DNA of 32,000 nucleotides from Candidatus Heimdallarchaeota archaeon B3_Heim (GTDB lineage: Archaea > Asgardarchaeota > Heimdallarchaeia > Hodarchaeales > Hodarchaeaceae), in contig NJBF01000035.1 in assembly GCA_003144275.1 (NCBI GenBank), positions 1 to 32,000 on the forward strand, given 5' to 3'. The notes beneath the pieces were generated by a model. The model was given only the letters and a program-made list of their open reading frames with translations. It was not told where the DNA came from and did no database searches. Of the stretch, positions 9,006-13,269 are shown one piece after another. Both the position numbers and the translations under genes were made by a program. The stretch's first letter is position 1, and every line of letters starts with the position of its first letter.

Positions 9006-9485
9006 TTAAAATAGTAAAGAAAGGGAAGGAATACTAATTTGTATTTCTTCGTTTATTTCAATAATTGAAAAGGGAAGGATTTTCTTTTGGGTTAATATTG
9101 GGAAATCCTTGTAAAATTCTTTATACTTATCATTGGATATTACAAAAGCTTCAAATTTTTCTGCGAAATCAAGGATAAAATAATCATCATTCCAATTTGA
9201 AGGAGTGTAGAAAATTCTCCCAGAGTTTTTCAAATTTTGAAGAATTCTGGAATCTTTAAATCTAATTTCGAAATATTCAGGGAGGATTATGAATATTTTA
9301 TTTGTAAGCTTTTCAAGGTACTTTACTAGGACACTGAACCTCATGAAATTAAATTTAATTCGTTTATTGTTGTAAAGGATATTTGCCCCATCAACAATAA
9401 ATGATATGCTCTTCTCTTTCTCCCACTTTTTCTTGAGATATTGTGTTATCTCATTAAAATCTTTCACTATCGACATAATGGTCAC
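9006..9485 (-). CDS. NYN/PIN ribonuclease of Zc3h12a (Regnase)-like type
   Basis: IVDGANI, NDDYFIL and VISNDKYKEF acidic tetrad. Confidence 0.8.
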   Translation of the reverse strand: MTIMSIVKDFNEITQYLKKKWEKEKSISFIVDGANILYNNKRIKFNFMRFSVLVKYLEKLTNKIFIILPEYFEIRFKDSRILQNLKNSGRIFYTPSNWNDDYFILDFAEKFEAFVISNDKYKEFYKDFPILTQKKILPFSIIEINEEIQISIPSLSLLF

Positions 9486-9642: not shown

Positions 9643-9762
9643 TTGGGTGACATAAAATTGCTTTATCAAAATGGGCAACATACTTAATTTGTACACTGGA
9701 ATTTCATATTTTGAAATGTGATCGAAGTTTTTGTAACACTTTCTTCTATGAAGAAACTTTTT

Positions 9763-9780
9763 TTCGTCGTCAAACCAGCC
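9763..9780 (+). repeat. CCAGCC-core site 1 (left arm plus core)
   Basis: ttcgtcgtcaaa-CCAGCC. It shares cgtcgtcaaaccagc with site 2. Confidence 0.7.
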
Positions 9781-9866
9781 TTATCGATGATTCTTATCAA
9801 TGGATTTTTCAAAAGAATGTCATTATGCATATATTTTTAGATACCGAAGGACGGAAGAAGAATTAG

Positions 9867-9973
9867 TGAAGCTGGTGGGATTTGAACCCACGCCCCCCCT
9901 TGAGGAACGTGTAAATGTTGCTCAAAATTGCACTTTCCTCAAGGAGGGTGTTCTGCCACTAAACTACAGCTTC
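9867..9973 (-). tRNA. tRNA-like gene with a ~37-nt insertion in the anticodon arm; identity unresolved; no encoded CCA
   Basis: Acceptor stem GAAGCTG/CAGCTTC with A73, D-arm GTTT-AGTGGCA-GAAC, T-arm GTGGG-TTCAAAT-CCCAC. The anticodon stem CCCTC/GGGGG is extended by CTTGAGGAA/TTCCTCAAG. Confidence 0.75.
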
Positions 9974-9975
9974 TC

Positions 9976-11010
9976 TTAATCATATTGGAATTTCATATAT
10001 TCCATGATTTCGTGAGATTTAATATTATATTGTTCCTCGGCATATTTAATAAATTTGTTCTTGAATCTCTTCTCTTGATTAGGATCTTCGAAAATATATT
10101 TCTTCTTTGTTTTATATTTTTCAAGCACGTGAGCTATAATCGTATCTTTATCTAAAGCTTCTAATACATTTTTATCAATTATAGAAGATAATTCTCTTAT
10201 AAGGACTAATATTTCAACCATTTCTGCTTCGTCCATCTTTTCTTTAATCATTTTTGCCTCTTTTTTACCCTTATTTGCTTCTCTTCCGTTCTTTTTCTGC
10301 ACTACCTTATGCATAATCGGTTTAGCAAAATTTATGTTGGAAAACCTTTTCTTTTTCTTATTTCTTCTAATTTCACTCCAATATTGATTAAGCAAAACAC
10401 CTTTAGATGAGATTAATTCTGCAAGGGATTTTGTTTGCTTTTTTCTATCATGGACGATATGATTCCTCCTTTTTCTAATATAGTCATTTGTGTCAATTAT
10501 ATTTTGATCAAAGCATCTTTGATCTTCACAATCCCTTTCTGGGAAGAGATAATTACTTAGAGATAATAATATGGTATTACATTTCTTTTCTGGATTTCCT
10601 TCTTGAGAATTCGGGTTGACAATTGAGTTTGTTTGAGATCCTGTCCGTATCTTCTTAATGAATTTGAAGAGCGACAATAAATAGTCTTCAAAAATTGAAT
10701 ACGTAAAAACGAAGGTAGATTCAAATGTAAATTCTCTCGATTTACTAAAATCGGTGTCAAAATCATTAAGTTTTACATTATATTTCTTAGAACGAGCTAT
10801 AGAGGAAAAACAATCCTCGGTTAAACAATCAGGTTGAGACTTGATTAGAACCTCATTCTTCATTATGAAAAAGTCTTGAACGAACAGTGTTAATTGGAGA
10901 TCTCTGTTGATTTGTGAAATTTTTTTTCTTAATTTCAGAATTTCTTTGGATCTCATTTCTTTCTCATCAACTTCAAATAATATGTGTAATTTGATAATGT
11001 AAAAGCTCAT
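9976..11010 (-). CDS. Putative HEPN-domain protein
   Basis: All-helical appearance, YSIFEDYL followed downstream by RRNHIVH (Rx4H HEPN motif). Confidence 0.6.
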   Translation of the reverse strand: MSFYIIKLHILFEVDEKEMRSKEILKLRKKISQINRDLQLTLFVQDFFIMKNEVLIKSQPDCLTEDCFSSIARSKKYNVKLNDFDTDFSKSREFTFESTFVFTYSIFEDYLLSLFKFIKKIRTGSQTNSIVNPNSQEGNPEKKCNTILLSLSNYLFPERDCEDQRCFDQNIIDTNDYIRKRRNHIVHDRKKQTKSLAELISSKGVLLNQYWSEIRRNKKKKRFSNINFAKPIMHKVVQKKNGREANKGKKEAKMIKEKMDEAEMVEILVLIRELSSIIDKNVLEALDKDTIIAHVLEKYKTKKKYIFEDPNQEKRFKNKFIKYAEEQYNIKSHEIMEYMKFQYD

Positions 11011-11134: not shown

Positions 11135-11731
11135 ATGTCTAAAATTATAGAAAAATTTCAGCAATTTTCTTTCAGTAAAGAAAAATTCCTAAAAAGGAGT
11201 GAATATAGAAAACTAGATAGGAGATGGAGGGAGATAATCTACAAAATTCCAATTGTTGATAACATCAACGAATTTATTCTCATCAAATTCTTACTGCATT
11301 TCCAAACTCAAATCAAACAGATACAAAAATTCCCTTTTGTTTTTGCTTATGAATTTCCCATAGATCCAGAAATGAGTAATAAAGGTAAGTTGGATTTAAT
11401 TTTAGTAAATCAAGATAAGAATAGAGTTGAATATTTAATAGTTGAGGTAAAATACCTTCAAAATAGGACGGGACCTACTTCTCGTGAAAGCAGAAGACGG
11501 AAACGCCGAAAAGTAGAACAACAGTCTTCGATTAATAGGATAAAATTCCAAGCATTATTCCCCAAAGCAATCGTAAATTCGATATTTATAACAAATGAGA
11601 GCTTCTCACAAGTGAGAAATTTGCATCAAGAGTATGGAGATTTTGCTGAAAAGGAATGGCAAAAGATCTACAATATCTACCCAGTTTTGAAGGATCAAAG
11701 AATATCTAATGAAGAAAATCCAATAAAATAA
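11135..11731 (+). CDS. Putative PD-(D/E)XK nuclease-fold protein
   Basis: YEFP...GKLDLILV...LIVEVK matches the E...D...ExK arrangement. Confidence 0.6.
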   Translation: MSKIIEKFQQFSFSKEKFLKRSEYRKLDRRWREIIYKIPIVDNINEFILIKFLLHFQTQIKQIQKFPFVFAYEFPIDPEMSNKGKLDLILVNQDKNRVEYLIVEVKYLQNRTGPTSRESRRRKRRKVEQQSSINRIKFQALFPKAIVNSIFITNESFSQVRNLHQEYGDFAEKEWQKIYNIYPVLKDQRISNEENPIK

Positions 11732-11956: not shown

Positions 11957-11973
11957 AACGTCGTCAAACCAGC
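11957..11973 (+). repeat. CCAGCC-core site 2, left part (split by IS)
   Basis: aacgtcgtcaaa-CCAGC is followed immediately by the IS left end. Confidence 0.8.
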
Positions 11974-13252
11974 CAGTTCTTCGTATCACCTCCTTGAAAA
12001 CTCCTCCTGTCTTCTAAAAAGTGCTTGATGCCATGATGTGACAATGAATTCGCAGAAATCGTTCGCTGAATAAACAAAATCGGCTCGACATCGCCGACTA
12101 GCTGATTTTAAGATGTGAATCGGTGATTTAAAGTAGGCCCAGAAATTACACAACCAAAATGCAATGAGAACAAGAATGAATCTAAGAGTTGGGTTTTGAG
12201 AACAACTAAAGATTTGAAATCGGTGCATCTGACGATAATAGGTCTCAATCGTGAATCTTCGACGGTAAAGTAAAGCTATCTTCTTTCCTGAAAGATTACA
12301 TGTAGTGGGAACAACTAAAGCTATAACACGAGTACCCTCTTGACACAGAGCAAGTTTTACTGGAAATCTCTCGCGGGTGTGACCTTTATTCAATTTATAA
12401 TTCACGATTAGGGCATCCCCTTTTTGAAGTAACTTTTCTTTATGTTTTTGTACTAAAGGTTTGACTCCCGAATTGACACGTCCACGAATAATGAAGAAGA
12501 CCTGTTCACTAACAAGCCACTTAATGAAATCCCAGTTATAGAAGCTACCGTCCGCCAATATTCCAACAATTCGTTCTTGAGTGAGTAAAGGCATCAAAAG
12601 GTTCTGAGCTGTCTTGAAAACAGAATGCTTTGTAGGAACGAGTTGAACCCCTAACGTGATTGGTTCGGGTGCATTTATCCAAATAACCGTTATATACTGA
12701 TAAAATTTATGAGTACTGGCCTTTTTCTTACCTTTACAGATGTAAGGAGAAACCGTCCTTGCATAGTTAGGATCAGTATGAAAATCGATCGCTAACAACA
12801 TTCCTTGCTTTCTTGCGCTTTGAAAGTTCTCGGGAAGACTTTCAAGAAACTTAAGAAAGCCGATTTGTTGTGAGAGCGTAATTTCCTCAACAGAATTTGT
12901 TCTTAACCATGCCAGGGTAGCTTCCCCAGAGGGAATTGGGAGATGTAGCTCGCGAAGATCTCGAGCCTTCCGAGAAATGGAGGTTCGATCGAGTGCGGTA
13001 AGTAAAAGTAATTTTAACCTGCCTTTCATAGTAAACGGTGATTTAGCAGGAATGGGGGTTGACAAGAATTGAAATCTATCCAACCAGCGTACCATAAAGT
13101 TTATAAGAGTCGGAGTTTTTCTAGCTTTACGTGGCGGAAAGCGAGGTAACTTAAGTTTGGTCATTTGAGTGATTCCTCGCTGGAATCCACTTTTAAAGGT
13201 TTCCCCTCCTTTTTTTTCATCCCGCTCAAAAAAATGAAGTTACGAAGTACTG
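11974..13252 (-). mobile_element. Complete ISH3-family insertion sequence, 1279 bp
   Basis: Terminal inverted repeats cagttcttcgta (11974-11985) and tacgaagtactg (13241-13252), 11/12 match. The 4-bp target duplication CAGC is at 11970-11973 and 13253-13256. Confidence 0.9.
11986..13164 (-). CDS. DDE transposase, ISH3 (IS4-like) family
   Basis: LAIDFH, ILADGSF, YRRRFTIETYYR (Y-x2-R-x3-E). Confidence 0.9.
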   Translation of the reverse strand: MTKLKLPRFPPRKARKTPTLINFMVRWLDRFQFLSTPIPAKSPFTMKGRLKLLLLTALDRTSISRKARDLRELHLPIPSGEATLAWLRTNSVEEITLSQQIGFLKFLESLPENFQSARKQGMLLAIDFHTDPNYARTVSPYICKGKKKASTHKFYQYITVIWINAPEPITLGVQLVPTKHSVFKTAQNLLMPLLTQERIVGILADGSFYNWDFIKWLVSEQVFFIIRGRVNSGVKPLVQKHKEKLLQKGDALIVNYKLNKGHTRERFPVKLALCQEGTRVIALVVPTTCNLSGKKIALLYRRRFTIETYYRQMHRFQIFSCSQNPTLRFILVLIAFWLCNFWAYFKSPIHILKSASRRCRADFVYSANDFCEFIVTSWHQALFRRQEEFSRR

Positions 13253-13269
13253 CAGCCTTTGACGGAGTT
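13253..13269 (+). repeat. CCAGCC-core site 2, right part
   Basis: CAGCC-tttgacggagtt, identical to the right arm of site 3. Confidence 0.8.

What the first reader, a model, noticed from the sequence alone, without database searches (positions are those of the whole stretch)
9867..9973. tRNA with a fully paired extension of the anticodon arm and no bulge-helix-bulge
Seen: acceptor, D and T arms are textbook, but the anticodon stem continues as a perfect 9-bp CTTGAGGAA/TTCCTCAAG helix plus GTG/CAC around a 19-nt loop, and only ~3 nt remain for the variable region. I could not fit a BHB motif at 37/38. A literal reading gives UGA (Ser) without the long variable arm. Alternative joins give CUUGCAA (Ala, but A3:U70 rather than G3:U70) or CUUUCAA (Glu). 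Inference: a non-canonical intron, a tRNA-derived ncRNA, or a pseudo-tRNA scarred by an insertion.
Basis: partly seen in the sequence, partly recalled or inferred. Interest (0 to 1): 0.65.

Follow-up and report, generated by a model that had tools for sequence, protein, structure and literature searches.

The report
tRNA-shaped RNA partnered with HEPN RNase
This is not a tRNA with an odd intron: it is a tRNA-shaped RNA whose anticodon loop is replaced by a long sealed hairpin, and it sits right after the stop codon of a HEPN ribonuclease gene here and in three unrelated bacteria, so it is probably the RNA half of a rare mobile toxin/defence module.

Summary
Acceptor, D and T arms are textbook (Rfam tRNA 53 bits). 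The anticodon arm is a 14-bp unbroken helix, then an A.G mismatch, GUG/CAC and a 19-nt loop. Only 2-3 nt remain for the variable region.

No bulge-helix-bulge motif gives a sensible tRNA. Every possible reading (Ser-UGA, Glu, Ala, Leu) already has a normal gene in this Asgard genome. No orthologue was found in 82 genomes of the class.

The flanking gene settles it. The 344-aa ORF ending 2 nt upstream belongs to a rare ~280-aa family with an invariant RNxxxH (HEPN) motif. It was not found in 399 other Asgard genomes.

In the three bacterial genomes where I could read DNA of close homologues, a ~97-nt tRNA-like RNA with the same sealed 17-19-layer arm starts within a few bases of the HEPN stop codon. 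Those genomes are an Ignavibacteria, a Chitinophagales and a "Rhizobium" MAG. Bacteria have no BHB splicing, so this is not an intron. The stems covary.

Best reading: a co-transcribed tRNA-mimic RNA that regulates or neutralises the RNase, as in type III toxin-antitoxin or AbiF/RCd22 systems. The function is inferred, not shown. I found no Rfam family or paper describing it. Another first-stage note on this window had suggested a HEPN plus tRNA mimic; the conservation evidence is new here.

The parts
9867..9973 (-). tRNA-like RNA (107 nt). Acceptor 9973-9967 with 9874-9868, discriminator A at 9867. D arm 9964-9950. T arm 9891-9875.
   Evidence: Rfam RF00005 at 53 bits; fold; homologous RNAs in L114, L108 and L116; 94.6% of stem cells paired and 8 of 23 pairs changed on both sides, 0/500 shuffles.
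9894..9948 (-). Sealed anticodon arm: 14-bp perfect helix (9948-9935 with 9907-9894), A.G mismatch, GUG/CAC (9933-9931 with 9911-9909) and a 19-nt loop (9930-9912). There is no 7-nt anticodon loop and no 3-nt bulges.
   Evidence: arm alone -28.5 kcal/mol, z -6.1. Arms of 17-19 stacked layers in all four RNAs, with unrelated distal sequence.
9976..11010 (-). HEPN-type RNase gene. The likely true start is Met19 at 10956. RNHIVH = R182 N183 H187. The TAA stop is at 9978-9976, 2 nt before the RNA.
   Evidence: phmmer gave 67 relatives. R-N-xxx-H are the only invariant columns in 35 sequences. 7 of 35 members hit PF18735 HEPN_RiboL-PSP. AF2 model pLDDT 86. At least 10 of the top 20 VIA-align hits are HEPN domains, Z 7-8.
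9995..10002 (-). AT-rich TATA-like box (AATATATG) about 22-29 nt upstream of RNA position 1, inside the HEPN ORF. It is a possible second promoter.
   Evidence: Read from the sequence. Inference only.
11135..11731 (+). Divergent 198-aa ORF with weak PD-(D/E)XK similarity. It lies in the same bracketed segment but is not conserved next to the bacterial modules.
   Evidence: PF08011 and PF02021 at E about 0.004, below cut-off. No counterpart in L114.
9765..9782 (+). Left copy of an 18-nt site (CGTCGTCAAACCAGCCTT) that brackets the module. The right copy is 11959-11974 and continues at 13254 after the IS.
9006..9485 (-). NYN-domain RNase gene 381 nt downstream on the same strand. It is a neighbour; no conserved link to the RNA was found.
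   Evidence: PF11977 at E 2e-14. Present in 2 of 21 genomes of the genus, and no tRNA-like RNA lies beside those homologues.

Best explanation
The locus encodes a two-part module acquired by horizontal transfer: a HEPN-family ribonuclease and, starting 2 nt after its stop codon, a tRNA-shaped non-coding RNA. In this RNA the anticodon stem-loop is replaced by a rigid hairpin of about 18 layers.

Shown here:
- The RNA has a covarying tRNA cloverleaf.
- The sealed arm keeps its length but not its sequence.
- The RNA abuts the stop codon of homologous HEPN genes in all four loci whose DNA could be read.

Inferred:
- Gene and RNA are transcribed together.
- RNase P and RNase Z cut the tRNA-like fold out of the transcript.
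- The released RNA binds the RNase as an uncleavable tRNA look-alike and keeps it inactive, like an RNA antitoxin in type III toxin-antitoxin or AbiF/RCd22 systems.
- Loss of the RNA, for example when a virus shuts off host transcription, frees the RNase to cut cellular RNA, perhaps tRNA anticodon loops.

It is not a decoding tRNA and not an intron-bearing gene.
For: The architecture is conserved with a homologous partner gene.
- hmmsearch confirms HEPN homologues in 11 of 13 bacterial loci.
- In the three that belong to the close subfamily, Rfam finds a 96-98-nt tRNA-like RNA on the same strand: L114 (E 3e-91), L108 and L116.
- Its first base lies from 2 nt after the stop codon to overlapping it, as in the window.
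- All four RNAs have a sealed arm of 17-19 layers: 14+3(+2), 7+5+5, 7+6+3 and 17 bp. The base is shared (CCCUUGG/CCAAGGG; here CCUUGAGG/CCUCAAGG) and the distal sequence is unrelated.
- Stems: 94.6% of cells paired and 8 pairs changed on both sides, 0/500 shuffles. Slid controls give 44-60% and at most 3 pairs.

The partner is a HEPN protein: invariant RNxxxH, PF18735 in 7 of 35 relatives and HEPN folds at the top of VIA-align.

The module is mobile and defence-like.
- The HEPN family was not found in 399 other Asgard genomes, nor in 400 + 400 relatives of two bacterial hosts.
- Cas3, reverse transcriptases and an integrase lie nearby.
- Here it sits in a low-GC stretch beside an IS.

Precedent: the HEPN protein AbiF is neutralised by the structured RNA RCd22 (PMC12373285).

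It is not a working tRNA: no BHB, all candidate isoacceptors are present and there is no orthologue in the class.
Against: - Only four loci are available, and three of the RNAs are 81% alike, so the covariation rests mostly on the archaeal copy.
- Two of the four HEPN genes are frameshifted.
- No expression, processing, binding or toxicity data exist.
- Known type III antitoxins are tandem repeats upstream of the toxin gene; this RNA is single and downstream.
- Our protein itself hits no Pfam HEPN model, and the fold Z-scores (7-8) are in the range helical bundles can reach by chance.
- The model built from the bacterial RNAs scores the window RNA only 3 bits above ordinary tRNAs.
Confidence: 0.55

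Rival explanations
1. The tRNA-like fold is only a cis-acting processing or stability element. RNase P cuts right after the stop codon, and RNase Z at the 3' end, to set the 3' end and half-life of the HEPN mRNA. This resembles tRNA punctuation or the mascRNA-type 3' ends of MALAT1. The excised RNA has no role of its own.
For: The RNA's 5' end lies within a few nt of the stop codon in 4 of 4 loci. The acceptor/T-arm half that RNase P and Z recognise is intact and covaries.
Against: A processing signal does not explain why the anticodon arm is kept as a hairpin of conserved length (17-19 layers) with a conserved base sequence. An ordinary tRNA would do the job. This rival is compatible with the best explanation as its first step.
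Confidence: 0.2
2. The RNA is a sensor, substrate, guide or primer rather than an inhibitor. Examples: the RNase is activated when a phage factor cleaves or modifies the tRNA mimic; or it primes the reverse transcriptases seen in one locus.
For: Two RVT_1 genes lie directly downstream of the RNA in L108. Many defence systems watch tRNA integrity (background knowledge).
Against: Reverse transcriptases are present in only one of four loci. There is no conserved third gene.
Confidence: 0.12
3. It is a dead tRNA. It could be a pseudo-tRNA or an attachment-site remnant of an integrative element whose anticodon region became a palindrome by chance or by template switching.
For: The gene is an orphan in a rearranged, IS-rich, low-GC stretch. 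A 13-bp direct repeat flanks it. Two of the four partner genes are decaying.
Against: Independent decay would not give the same sealed arm, of the same length and at the same place, beside homologous genes in two domains with compensatory changes.
Confidence: 0.08
4. It is a real tRNA gene with a non-canonical intron. The broad-specificity splicing endonuclease of this archaeon removes the intron, for example through the slipped hBH fold with cuts after positions 39 and 74.
For: The genome has two EndA paralogues and many relaxed, non-canonical introns (bioRxiv 10.64898/2026.10.13.758758). The 39/74 join gives a 72-nt product.
Against: - The slipped fold lies 17 kcal/mol above the MFE, and the product misfolds.
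- The product would be a class-I UGA-anticodon tRNA with A73, which fits no synthetase rule known to me. A normal Ser(UGA) gene exists.
- The bacterial homologues have the same arm but no BHB machinery.
Confidence: 0.03

Closest known systems
AbiF / RCd22 of Clostridioides difficile (Abi_2 HEPN protein plus 'abiF motif' RNA; PMC12373285)
   Same: A HEPN-family toxic protein is encoded next to a structured non-coding RNA. That RNA binds it directly and neutralises it, in a mobile or defence context.
   Different: RCd22 lies upstream and carries two abiF motifs; it is not tRNA-shaped. Here the RNA lies downstream, abuts the stop codon and is a full tRNA cloverleaf with a sealed arm. The HEPN protein is of the RiboL-PSP-like branch, not Abi_2. 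No abiF Rfam match was found. Neutralisation is untested here.
Type III toxin-antitoxin systems (ToxIN, CptIN, TenpIN)
   Same: An endoribonuclease toxin gene and its RNA antitoxin are transcribed as one unit. The RNA is cut out of the transcript. Such systems act in abortive infection.
   Different: Those antitoxins are tandem repeats upstream of the toxin gene and are processed by the toxin itself. The toxins have the ToxN/AbiQ fold, not HEPN. Here there is one copy, downstream, and it is presumably processed by RNase P and Z.
Archaeal BHB-intron tRNA genes of Asgard archaea (bioRxiv 10.64898/2026.10.13.758758)
   Same: Same genome background, an insert of 35-41 nt in the anticodon arm, and EndA present.
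   Different: No bulges, no usable mature product and no orthologues. The homologues are in bacteria.
tRNA-like processing modules such as mascRNA at the MALAT1 3' end, or the tRNA-like domain of tmRNA
   Same: A tRNA-shaped fold without a working anticodon is recognised by tRNA enzymes (RNase P and Z). It serves a non-decoding role and defines the end of an upstream RNA.
   Different: Unrelated in sequence, host and partner. None of them is coupled to a HEPN gene or has an anticodon arm of about 18 bp.

Membership tests
tRNA (Rfam RF00005) | Score above the curated gathering cut-off, with acceptor, D and T arms | tested here: met
   53 bits against a cut-off of 29. U8, A14, G18-G19, G53-C61 and the UUCAAAU T loop are all present.
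tRNA (functional decoder) | 5-bp anticodon stem, 7-nt loop with U33 and R37, and a variable region of at least 4 nt | tested here: not met
   14-bp helix, no 7-nt loop and a 2-nt variable region in the MFE. The homologues have terminal loops of 3, 3 and 7 nt.
Archaeal BHB-intron tRNA gene | Two 3-nt bulges separated by a 4-bp helix at the exon-intron joints (strict or relaxed hBH/HBh') | tested here: not met
   The scan recovers known introns of this genome but nothing usable here. The relaxed candidate lies 17 kcal/mol above the MFE.
Archaeal BHB-intron tRNA gene | The spliced product fills an isoacceptor role, and orthologues exist in relatives | tested here: not met
   Ser(UGA), Glu(CUC), Glu(UUC), Ala(UGC) and Leu(GAG) genes are all present. 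The 5' half was not found in 82 other genomes of the class.
Archaeal BHB-intron tRNA gene | Splicing endonuclease present in the genome | tested here: met
   Two PF01974 matches on contig C57, at 99 and 65 bits.
HEPN superfamily (partner protein) | Conserved Rx4-6H catalytic motif | tested here: met
   R182, N183 and H187 are the only invariant columns of the 35-sequence alignment.
HEPN superfamily (partner protein) | Match to a curated HEPN family model | tested here: inconclusive
   The window protein hits no Pfam model, even at E 10. 7 of 35 relatives hit PF18735 HEPN_RiboL-PSP, best E 2.5e-6. The ESM Atlas points to the same family at 0.81-0.87.
HEPN superfamily (partner protein) | HEPN helical-bundle fold | tested here: inconclusive
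   AF2 model pLDDT 86. Foldseek found nothing significant. In VIA-align the top hits are mostly HEPN domains (3o10, 2hsb, 5yep, 1ylm, 9oik, 7ae2), but at Z 7.3-8.2, which is within the chance range for helical bundles.
Type III toxin-antitoxin system | RNA gene adjacent to, and on the same strand as, an endoRNase toxin gene | tested here: met
   4 of 4 loci, within a few nt of the stop codon.
Type III toxin-antitoxin system | Antitoxin made of tandem repeats upstream of the toxin, processed by the toxin | tested here: not met
   The RNA is a single copy and lies downstream, with no repeats.
Type III toxin-antitoxin system | The protein is toxic and the RNA neutralises it by direct binding | not testable with these tools
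   This needs expression and binding assays.
abiF RNA motif / RCd22 | Match to the Rfam abiF motif model | tested here: not met
   cmscan at gathering cut-offs finds only RF00005 in the window and in L105-L117.

The most novel reading that the evidence does not exclude
This is a previously undescribed kind of toxin/defence module. A HEPN anticodon-type nuclease is held in check by a dedicated tRNA mimic whose cleavable anticodon loop has been replaced by a double-stranded 'plug' of fixed length. The mimic is excised from the toxin's own transcript by the cell's tRNA-processing enzymes. The module moves between bacteria and Asgard archaea.
Probability: 0.35. Interest if true: 0.85.

Novelty: new variant of a known kind. 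Interest (0 to 1): 0.74.

Why it matters
If the RNA neutralises the RNase, it would be a substrate-mimic antitoxin built from a tRNA scaffold. That would be a new way for RNA to control a HEPN nuclease, and a natural tool for probing how such nucleases recognise tRNA. It would also show a bacterial-type defence module working in an Asgard archaeon.

On the practical side, it warns annotators. In intron-rich archaea a 'tRNA with a strange intron' may not be a tRNA at all. In bacteria, tRNA calls of 96-98 nt 'with introns' next to HEPN genes deserve a second look.

No Rfam family covers this RNA. The papers I could search (6 of 10 allowed queries) do not describe it.

Tried and rejected
BHB and splicing readings:
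- Strict and relaxed BHB scans with one or two introns, with 30-nt flanks, gave no usable motif.
- The slipped hBH fold was rejected on energy.
- No G-run correction restores a canonical 37/38 intron (reasoned).

Insertion-element readings:
- MITE or repeat: the insert is unique in the genome.
- It is unrelated to the IS inverted repeats.

Search for orthologues:
- BLAST against 40 and 82 relatives found only T-arm matches.
- A 25-nt pattern with up to 3 mismatches was found only in the own genome.
- An exact 24-mer gave none in genome contigs.
- It gave one in IMG/VR, a phage tRNA-Asp with the same acceptor and D arm but a normal anticodon arm; I read this as convergence.
- A 3'-half pattern in metagenomes hit 13 unrelated soil contigs.

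Link to the NYN RNase: not conserved.

Neighbour annotation:
- PHROGs, PADLOC and NCBIfam gave nothing for the neighbours.
- The word-indexed protein search found only the query itself; full phmmer was needed.

Searches for more module copies:
- tblastn of two family members against plasmids and phages gave no match.
- Motif and RNA patterns in viral contigs gave none.
- Sampling 400 relatives each of two bacterial hosts gave no further copies.

Protein structure and model checks:
- Foldseek against PDB and a PDB profile search gave nothing significant.
- The CM built from the bacterial RNAs does not separate this RNA from ordinary tRNAs.

Full report
1. THE OBSERVATION

The feature is real and lies on the minus strand.
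- Rfam's tRNA model matches window 9973 to 9867 at 53 bits, against a cut-off of 29.
- Default ARAGORN finds nothing.
- With introns allowed, ARAGORN forces a Leu(GAG) call that needs an extra base at position 26.

The minimum-energy fold is -46.5 kcal/mol with z -5.2, and no shuffle out of 200 does as well. It has these parts:
- a 7-bp acceptor stem;
- a 4-bp D stem with G18-G19 in its loop;
- a 5-bp T stem with a UUCAAAU loop;
- an anticodon arm that is one unbroken 14-bp helix (RNA positions 26-39 with 67-80), followed by an A.G mismatch, GUG/CAC and a 19-nt loop.

Only GC is left between this arm and the T stem. Among 38 tRNA genes that I located in the genome, no other has an uninterrupted helix longer than 10 bp. 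This gene also has one of the two least G+C-rich acceptor stems, tied with the bacterial-looking Glu(UUC) on C5.

2. IS IT AN INTRON?

The genome and its splicing machinery:
- The genome is 3.95 Mb, 36% G+C, in 103 contigs.
- It is an Asgard archaeon. Earlier notes of this scan call it Hodarchaeales; I did not verify the order.
- It has two EndA paralogues.
- Its tRNA genes are heavily interrupted, and many introns are at non-canonical sites.
- This agrees with the Asgard tRNA census of Goswami et al., bioRxiv 10.64898/2026.10.13.758758.

An odd intron was therefore the natural first idea.

I wrote a BHB scanner. It recovers the canonical introns of this genome (Thr-CGU, Lys-UUU, Lys-CUU and the T-loop intron of Glu-CUC). 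On this gene it finds nothing that yields a tRNA with a 5-bp stem, a 7-nt loop and a normal variable region, with either one or two introns.

One relaxed hBH candidate exists, with cuts after positions 39 and 74.
- It relies on slipping the pyrimidine run against the G7 run.
- That fold lies 17 kcal/mol above the MFE.
- Its 72-nt product prefers an 8-bp stem with a tetraloop.

The readings obtained by simple joins are anticodon UGA, Glu-CUC, Glu-UUC, Ala-UGC and Leu-GAG. Proper genes for all of them exist elsewhere in the genome:
- a class-II Ser(UGA) with G73;
- both Glu isoacceptors;
- Ala(UGC);
- Leu(GAG).

No orthologue turned up:
- not by BLAST in 40 relatives;
- not by a 25-nt pattern with 3 mismatches in 83 genomes of the class;
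- not by an exact 24-mer in one genome each of 185,579 species.

3. WHAT THE SURROUNDINGS SHOW

The RNA starts 2 nt after the TAA stop of a 344-aa ORF on the same strand.
- That ORF had no Pfam, PHROG or PADLOC match.
- It had no word-indexed relative.
- Another first-stage note on this window suggested a HEPN motif, so I tested that idea.

The tests gave the following:
- A full phmmer scan found 67 relatives of about 280 aa at 24-33% identity, with E-values down to 7e-23. They begin at our Met19.
- In a 35-sequence alignment the only invariant columns are R182, N183 and H187. That is the RNxxxH signature of HEPN nucleases.
- Seven of the 35 members hit Pfam PF18735, RiboL-PSP-HEPN.
- The ESM Atlas points to the same family.
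- An AlphaFold model has pLDDT 86. It finds mostly HEPN domains at the top of an exhaustive structural comparison, though at modest Z of 7-8.

The family's distribution:
- It was not found in 399 other Asgard genomes.
- The local DNA has 29-31% G+C against about 35% elsewhere.
- The stretch carries an IS.

The gene is therefore an import.

4. THE DECISIVE COMPARISON

A degenerate motif scan fetched 13 bacterial loci, and hmmsearch confirmed HEPN homologues in 11 of them.

In the three loci that belong to the close subfamily, Rfam reports a 'tRNA' of 96-98 nt on the same strand, directly after the gene:
- L114, an Ignavibacteria MAG (E 3e-91);
- L108, a MAG labelled Rhizobium;
- L116, a Chitinophagales MAG.

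ARAGORN calls them tRNAs with 25-29-nt 'introns'. Bacteria have no BHB splicing.

The RNA's first base sits close to the stop codon in every case:
- immediately after UAA in L114;
- sharing the G of UAG in L108;
- overlapping UGA in L116;
- 2 nt after TAA in the window.

Each RNA has a tRNA acceptor stem, D arm and T arm. In place of the anticodon stem-loop each has a sealed hairpin:

| Locus | Sealed arm | Terminal loop |
|---|---|---|
| L114 | 7+5+5 bp | 3 nt |
| L108 | 7+6+3 bp | 7 nt |
| L116 | 17 bp | 3 nt |
| window | 14+3(+2) bp | 19 nt (13 nt in the MFE) |

- Arm length is kept at about 17-19 stacked layers.
- The base of the arm is similar: CCCUUGG/CCAAGGG in the bacteria, CCUUGAGG/CCUCAAGG here.
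- The distal sequence is unrelated.

On the four-sequence alignment, 94.6% of stem cells pair and 8 of 23 pairs changed on both sides. No shuffle out of 500 reached either value. With the 3' partner slid by 1-3 columns, pairing falls to 44-60% and at most 3 pairs change on both sides.

More distant HEPN homologues (L106, L107, L109, L111-L113, L115, L117) have no such RNA.

Caveats:
- There are only four loci.
- The three bacterial RNAs are 81% alike.
- Two of the bacterial HEPN genes are frameshifted, and one of those RNAs has a broken T stem.
- A covariance model built from the bacterial RNAs ranks the window RNA first, but only 3 bits above ordinary tRNAs.

5. HOW IT PROBABLY WORKS

Shown:
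- A covarying tRNA-shaped RNA without an anticodon loop is tied physically to the stop codon of a HEPN-motif gene, in a rare module.
- The module occurs sporadically in distant hosts.
- It lies next to Cas3, reverse transcriptases, an integrase or an IS.

Inferred:
- Gene and RNA are co-transcribed.
- RNase P and RNase Z release the RNA.
- The RNA binds the nuclease as a tRNA look-alike that cannot be cut.
- The RNA behaves as an antitoxin.
- When the RNA is lost, the nuclease is freed.

The nearest documented parallel is AbiF/RCd22. There a HEPN (Abi_2) toxin is neutralised by direct binding of an adjacent structured RNA (PMC12373285). Classical type III toxin-antitoxin pairs are the wider analogy.

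This RNA differs from both. It is single-copy, it lies downstream, and it has a tRNA shape. It fails the defining repeat-and-processing features of type III systems, and it does not match the abiF motif.

A more modest rival is that the fold only sets the mRNA 3' end. That would not explain the conserved sealed arm.

6. NOVELTY

- Rfam 15 offers only the generic tRNA model for these RNAs.
- Six literature queries found no description of a HEPN gene coupled to a tRNA mimic.
- I file it as a new variant of the 'RNase toxin plus RNA partner' kind, with its function untested.
- Another first-stage note of this scan, on this same window, had proposed a HEPN gene plus tRNA mimic.
- The cross-domain conservation shown here is my own result.

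7. LIMITS

- The caps on metagenome and genome scans were reached.
- For these reasons the remaining family members could not be inspected.

Noticed in passing
window 9697-9709 and 9986-9998: An exact 13-bp direct repeat (TGGAATTTCATAT) flanks the RNA gene plus 157 nt of trailer. These are the only two exact copies in the 3.95-Mb genome. The upstream copy encodes the HEPN C-terminus. Its origin (duplication, insertion scar or a second promoter copy) is unresolved.
   Followed up: partly
window 9765-9782, 11959-11974 + 13254-13268, 15493, 19254, 25119; also contigs C20 and C22: A repeated site family, AAACCAGCCTTTGACGGAG, has 12 copies in the genome and is clustered on three contigs. Two copies bracket the RNA, HEPN and PD-(D/E)XK-like genes, as if gene cassettes were delimited by recombination sites.
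   Followed up: partly
window 11975-13253: An IS with a DDE_Tnp_1 transposase and terminal inverted repeats CAGTTCTTCG/CGAAGTACTG is inserted inside one of those sites, with CAGC duplicated. About ten related copies at 74-77% identity lie elsewhere in the genome. Several are preceded by a GTCNNCAAAC-like motif, which suggests site preference.
   Followed up: partly
L108 226-4000 (-) and L114 2159-4460 (-): The bacterial modules sit in defence-island-like DNA. In L108 two reverse-transcriptase genes follow the RNA directly and an integrase fragment lies upstream. In L114 a Cas3 HD-helicase lies downstream.
   Followed up: no
G401:C33:4319-5177 (L108) and G402:C114:7055-7880 (L116): The HEPN genes of two of the three bacterial modules are broken by frameshifts. 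The L116 RNA has also lost its T stem. This looks like decay of a toxic module, or MAG assembly errors.
   Followed up: no
genome contigs C5:4246-4317 and C57:192643-192729: Two intron-less tRNAs, Glu(UUC) and Leu(CAA), have bacterial-type sequences inside this archaeal assembly. They could be contamination, chimeric contig ends or transferred genes.
   Followed up: no
L076 8479-8549 (-), IMGVR_UViG_3300002930_001342: A phage tRNA-Asp(GUC) in a 13-tRNA array has exactly the same acceptor stem and D arm (24 + 7 nt) as the window RNA, but a normal anticodon arm and a different T arm.
   Followed up: partly
L077-L089 (soil metagenome contigs): Thirteen contigs carry only the 3' piece of a tRNA (GCTGAGGTCGTGGGTTCAAATCCCACCAGCTTCA) after unrelated DNA. 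They share a trailer. These may be attachment-site copies or heavily split tRNA genes of another archaeon.
   Followed up: no
window 9006-9485 (-): A 159-aa NYN/Zc3h12a-like RNase gene lies 381 nt downstream of the RNA. It is present in only 2 of 21 genomes of the genus. With the HEPN gene and the weak PD-(D/E)XK ORF it forms a small cluster of nuclease genes.
   Followed up: partly
genome contig C88:42048-42231 and C80 about 39400-39557 (-): The native Ser(UGA) and Glu(CUC) genes are themselves split by several introns, at D-arm, anticodon and T-loop positions. ARAGORN misreads them.
   Followed up: partly
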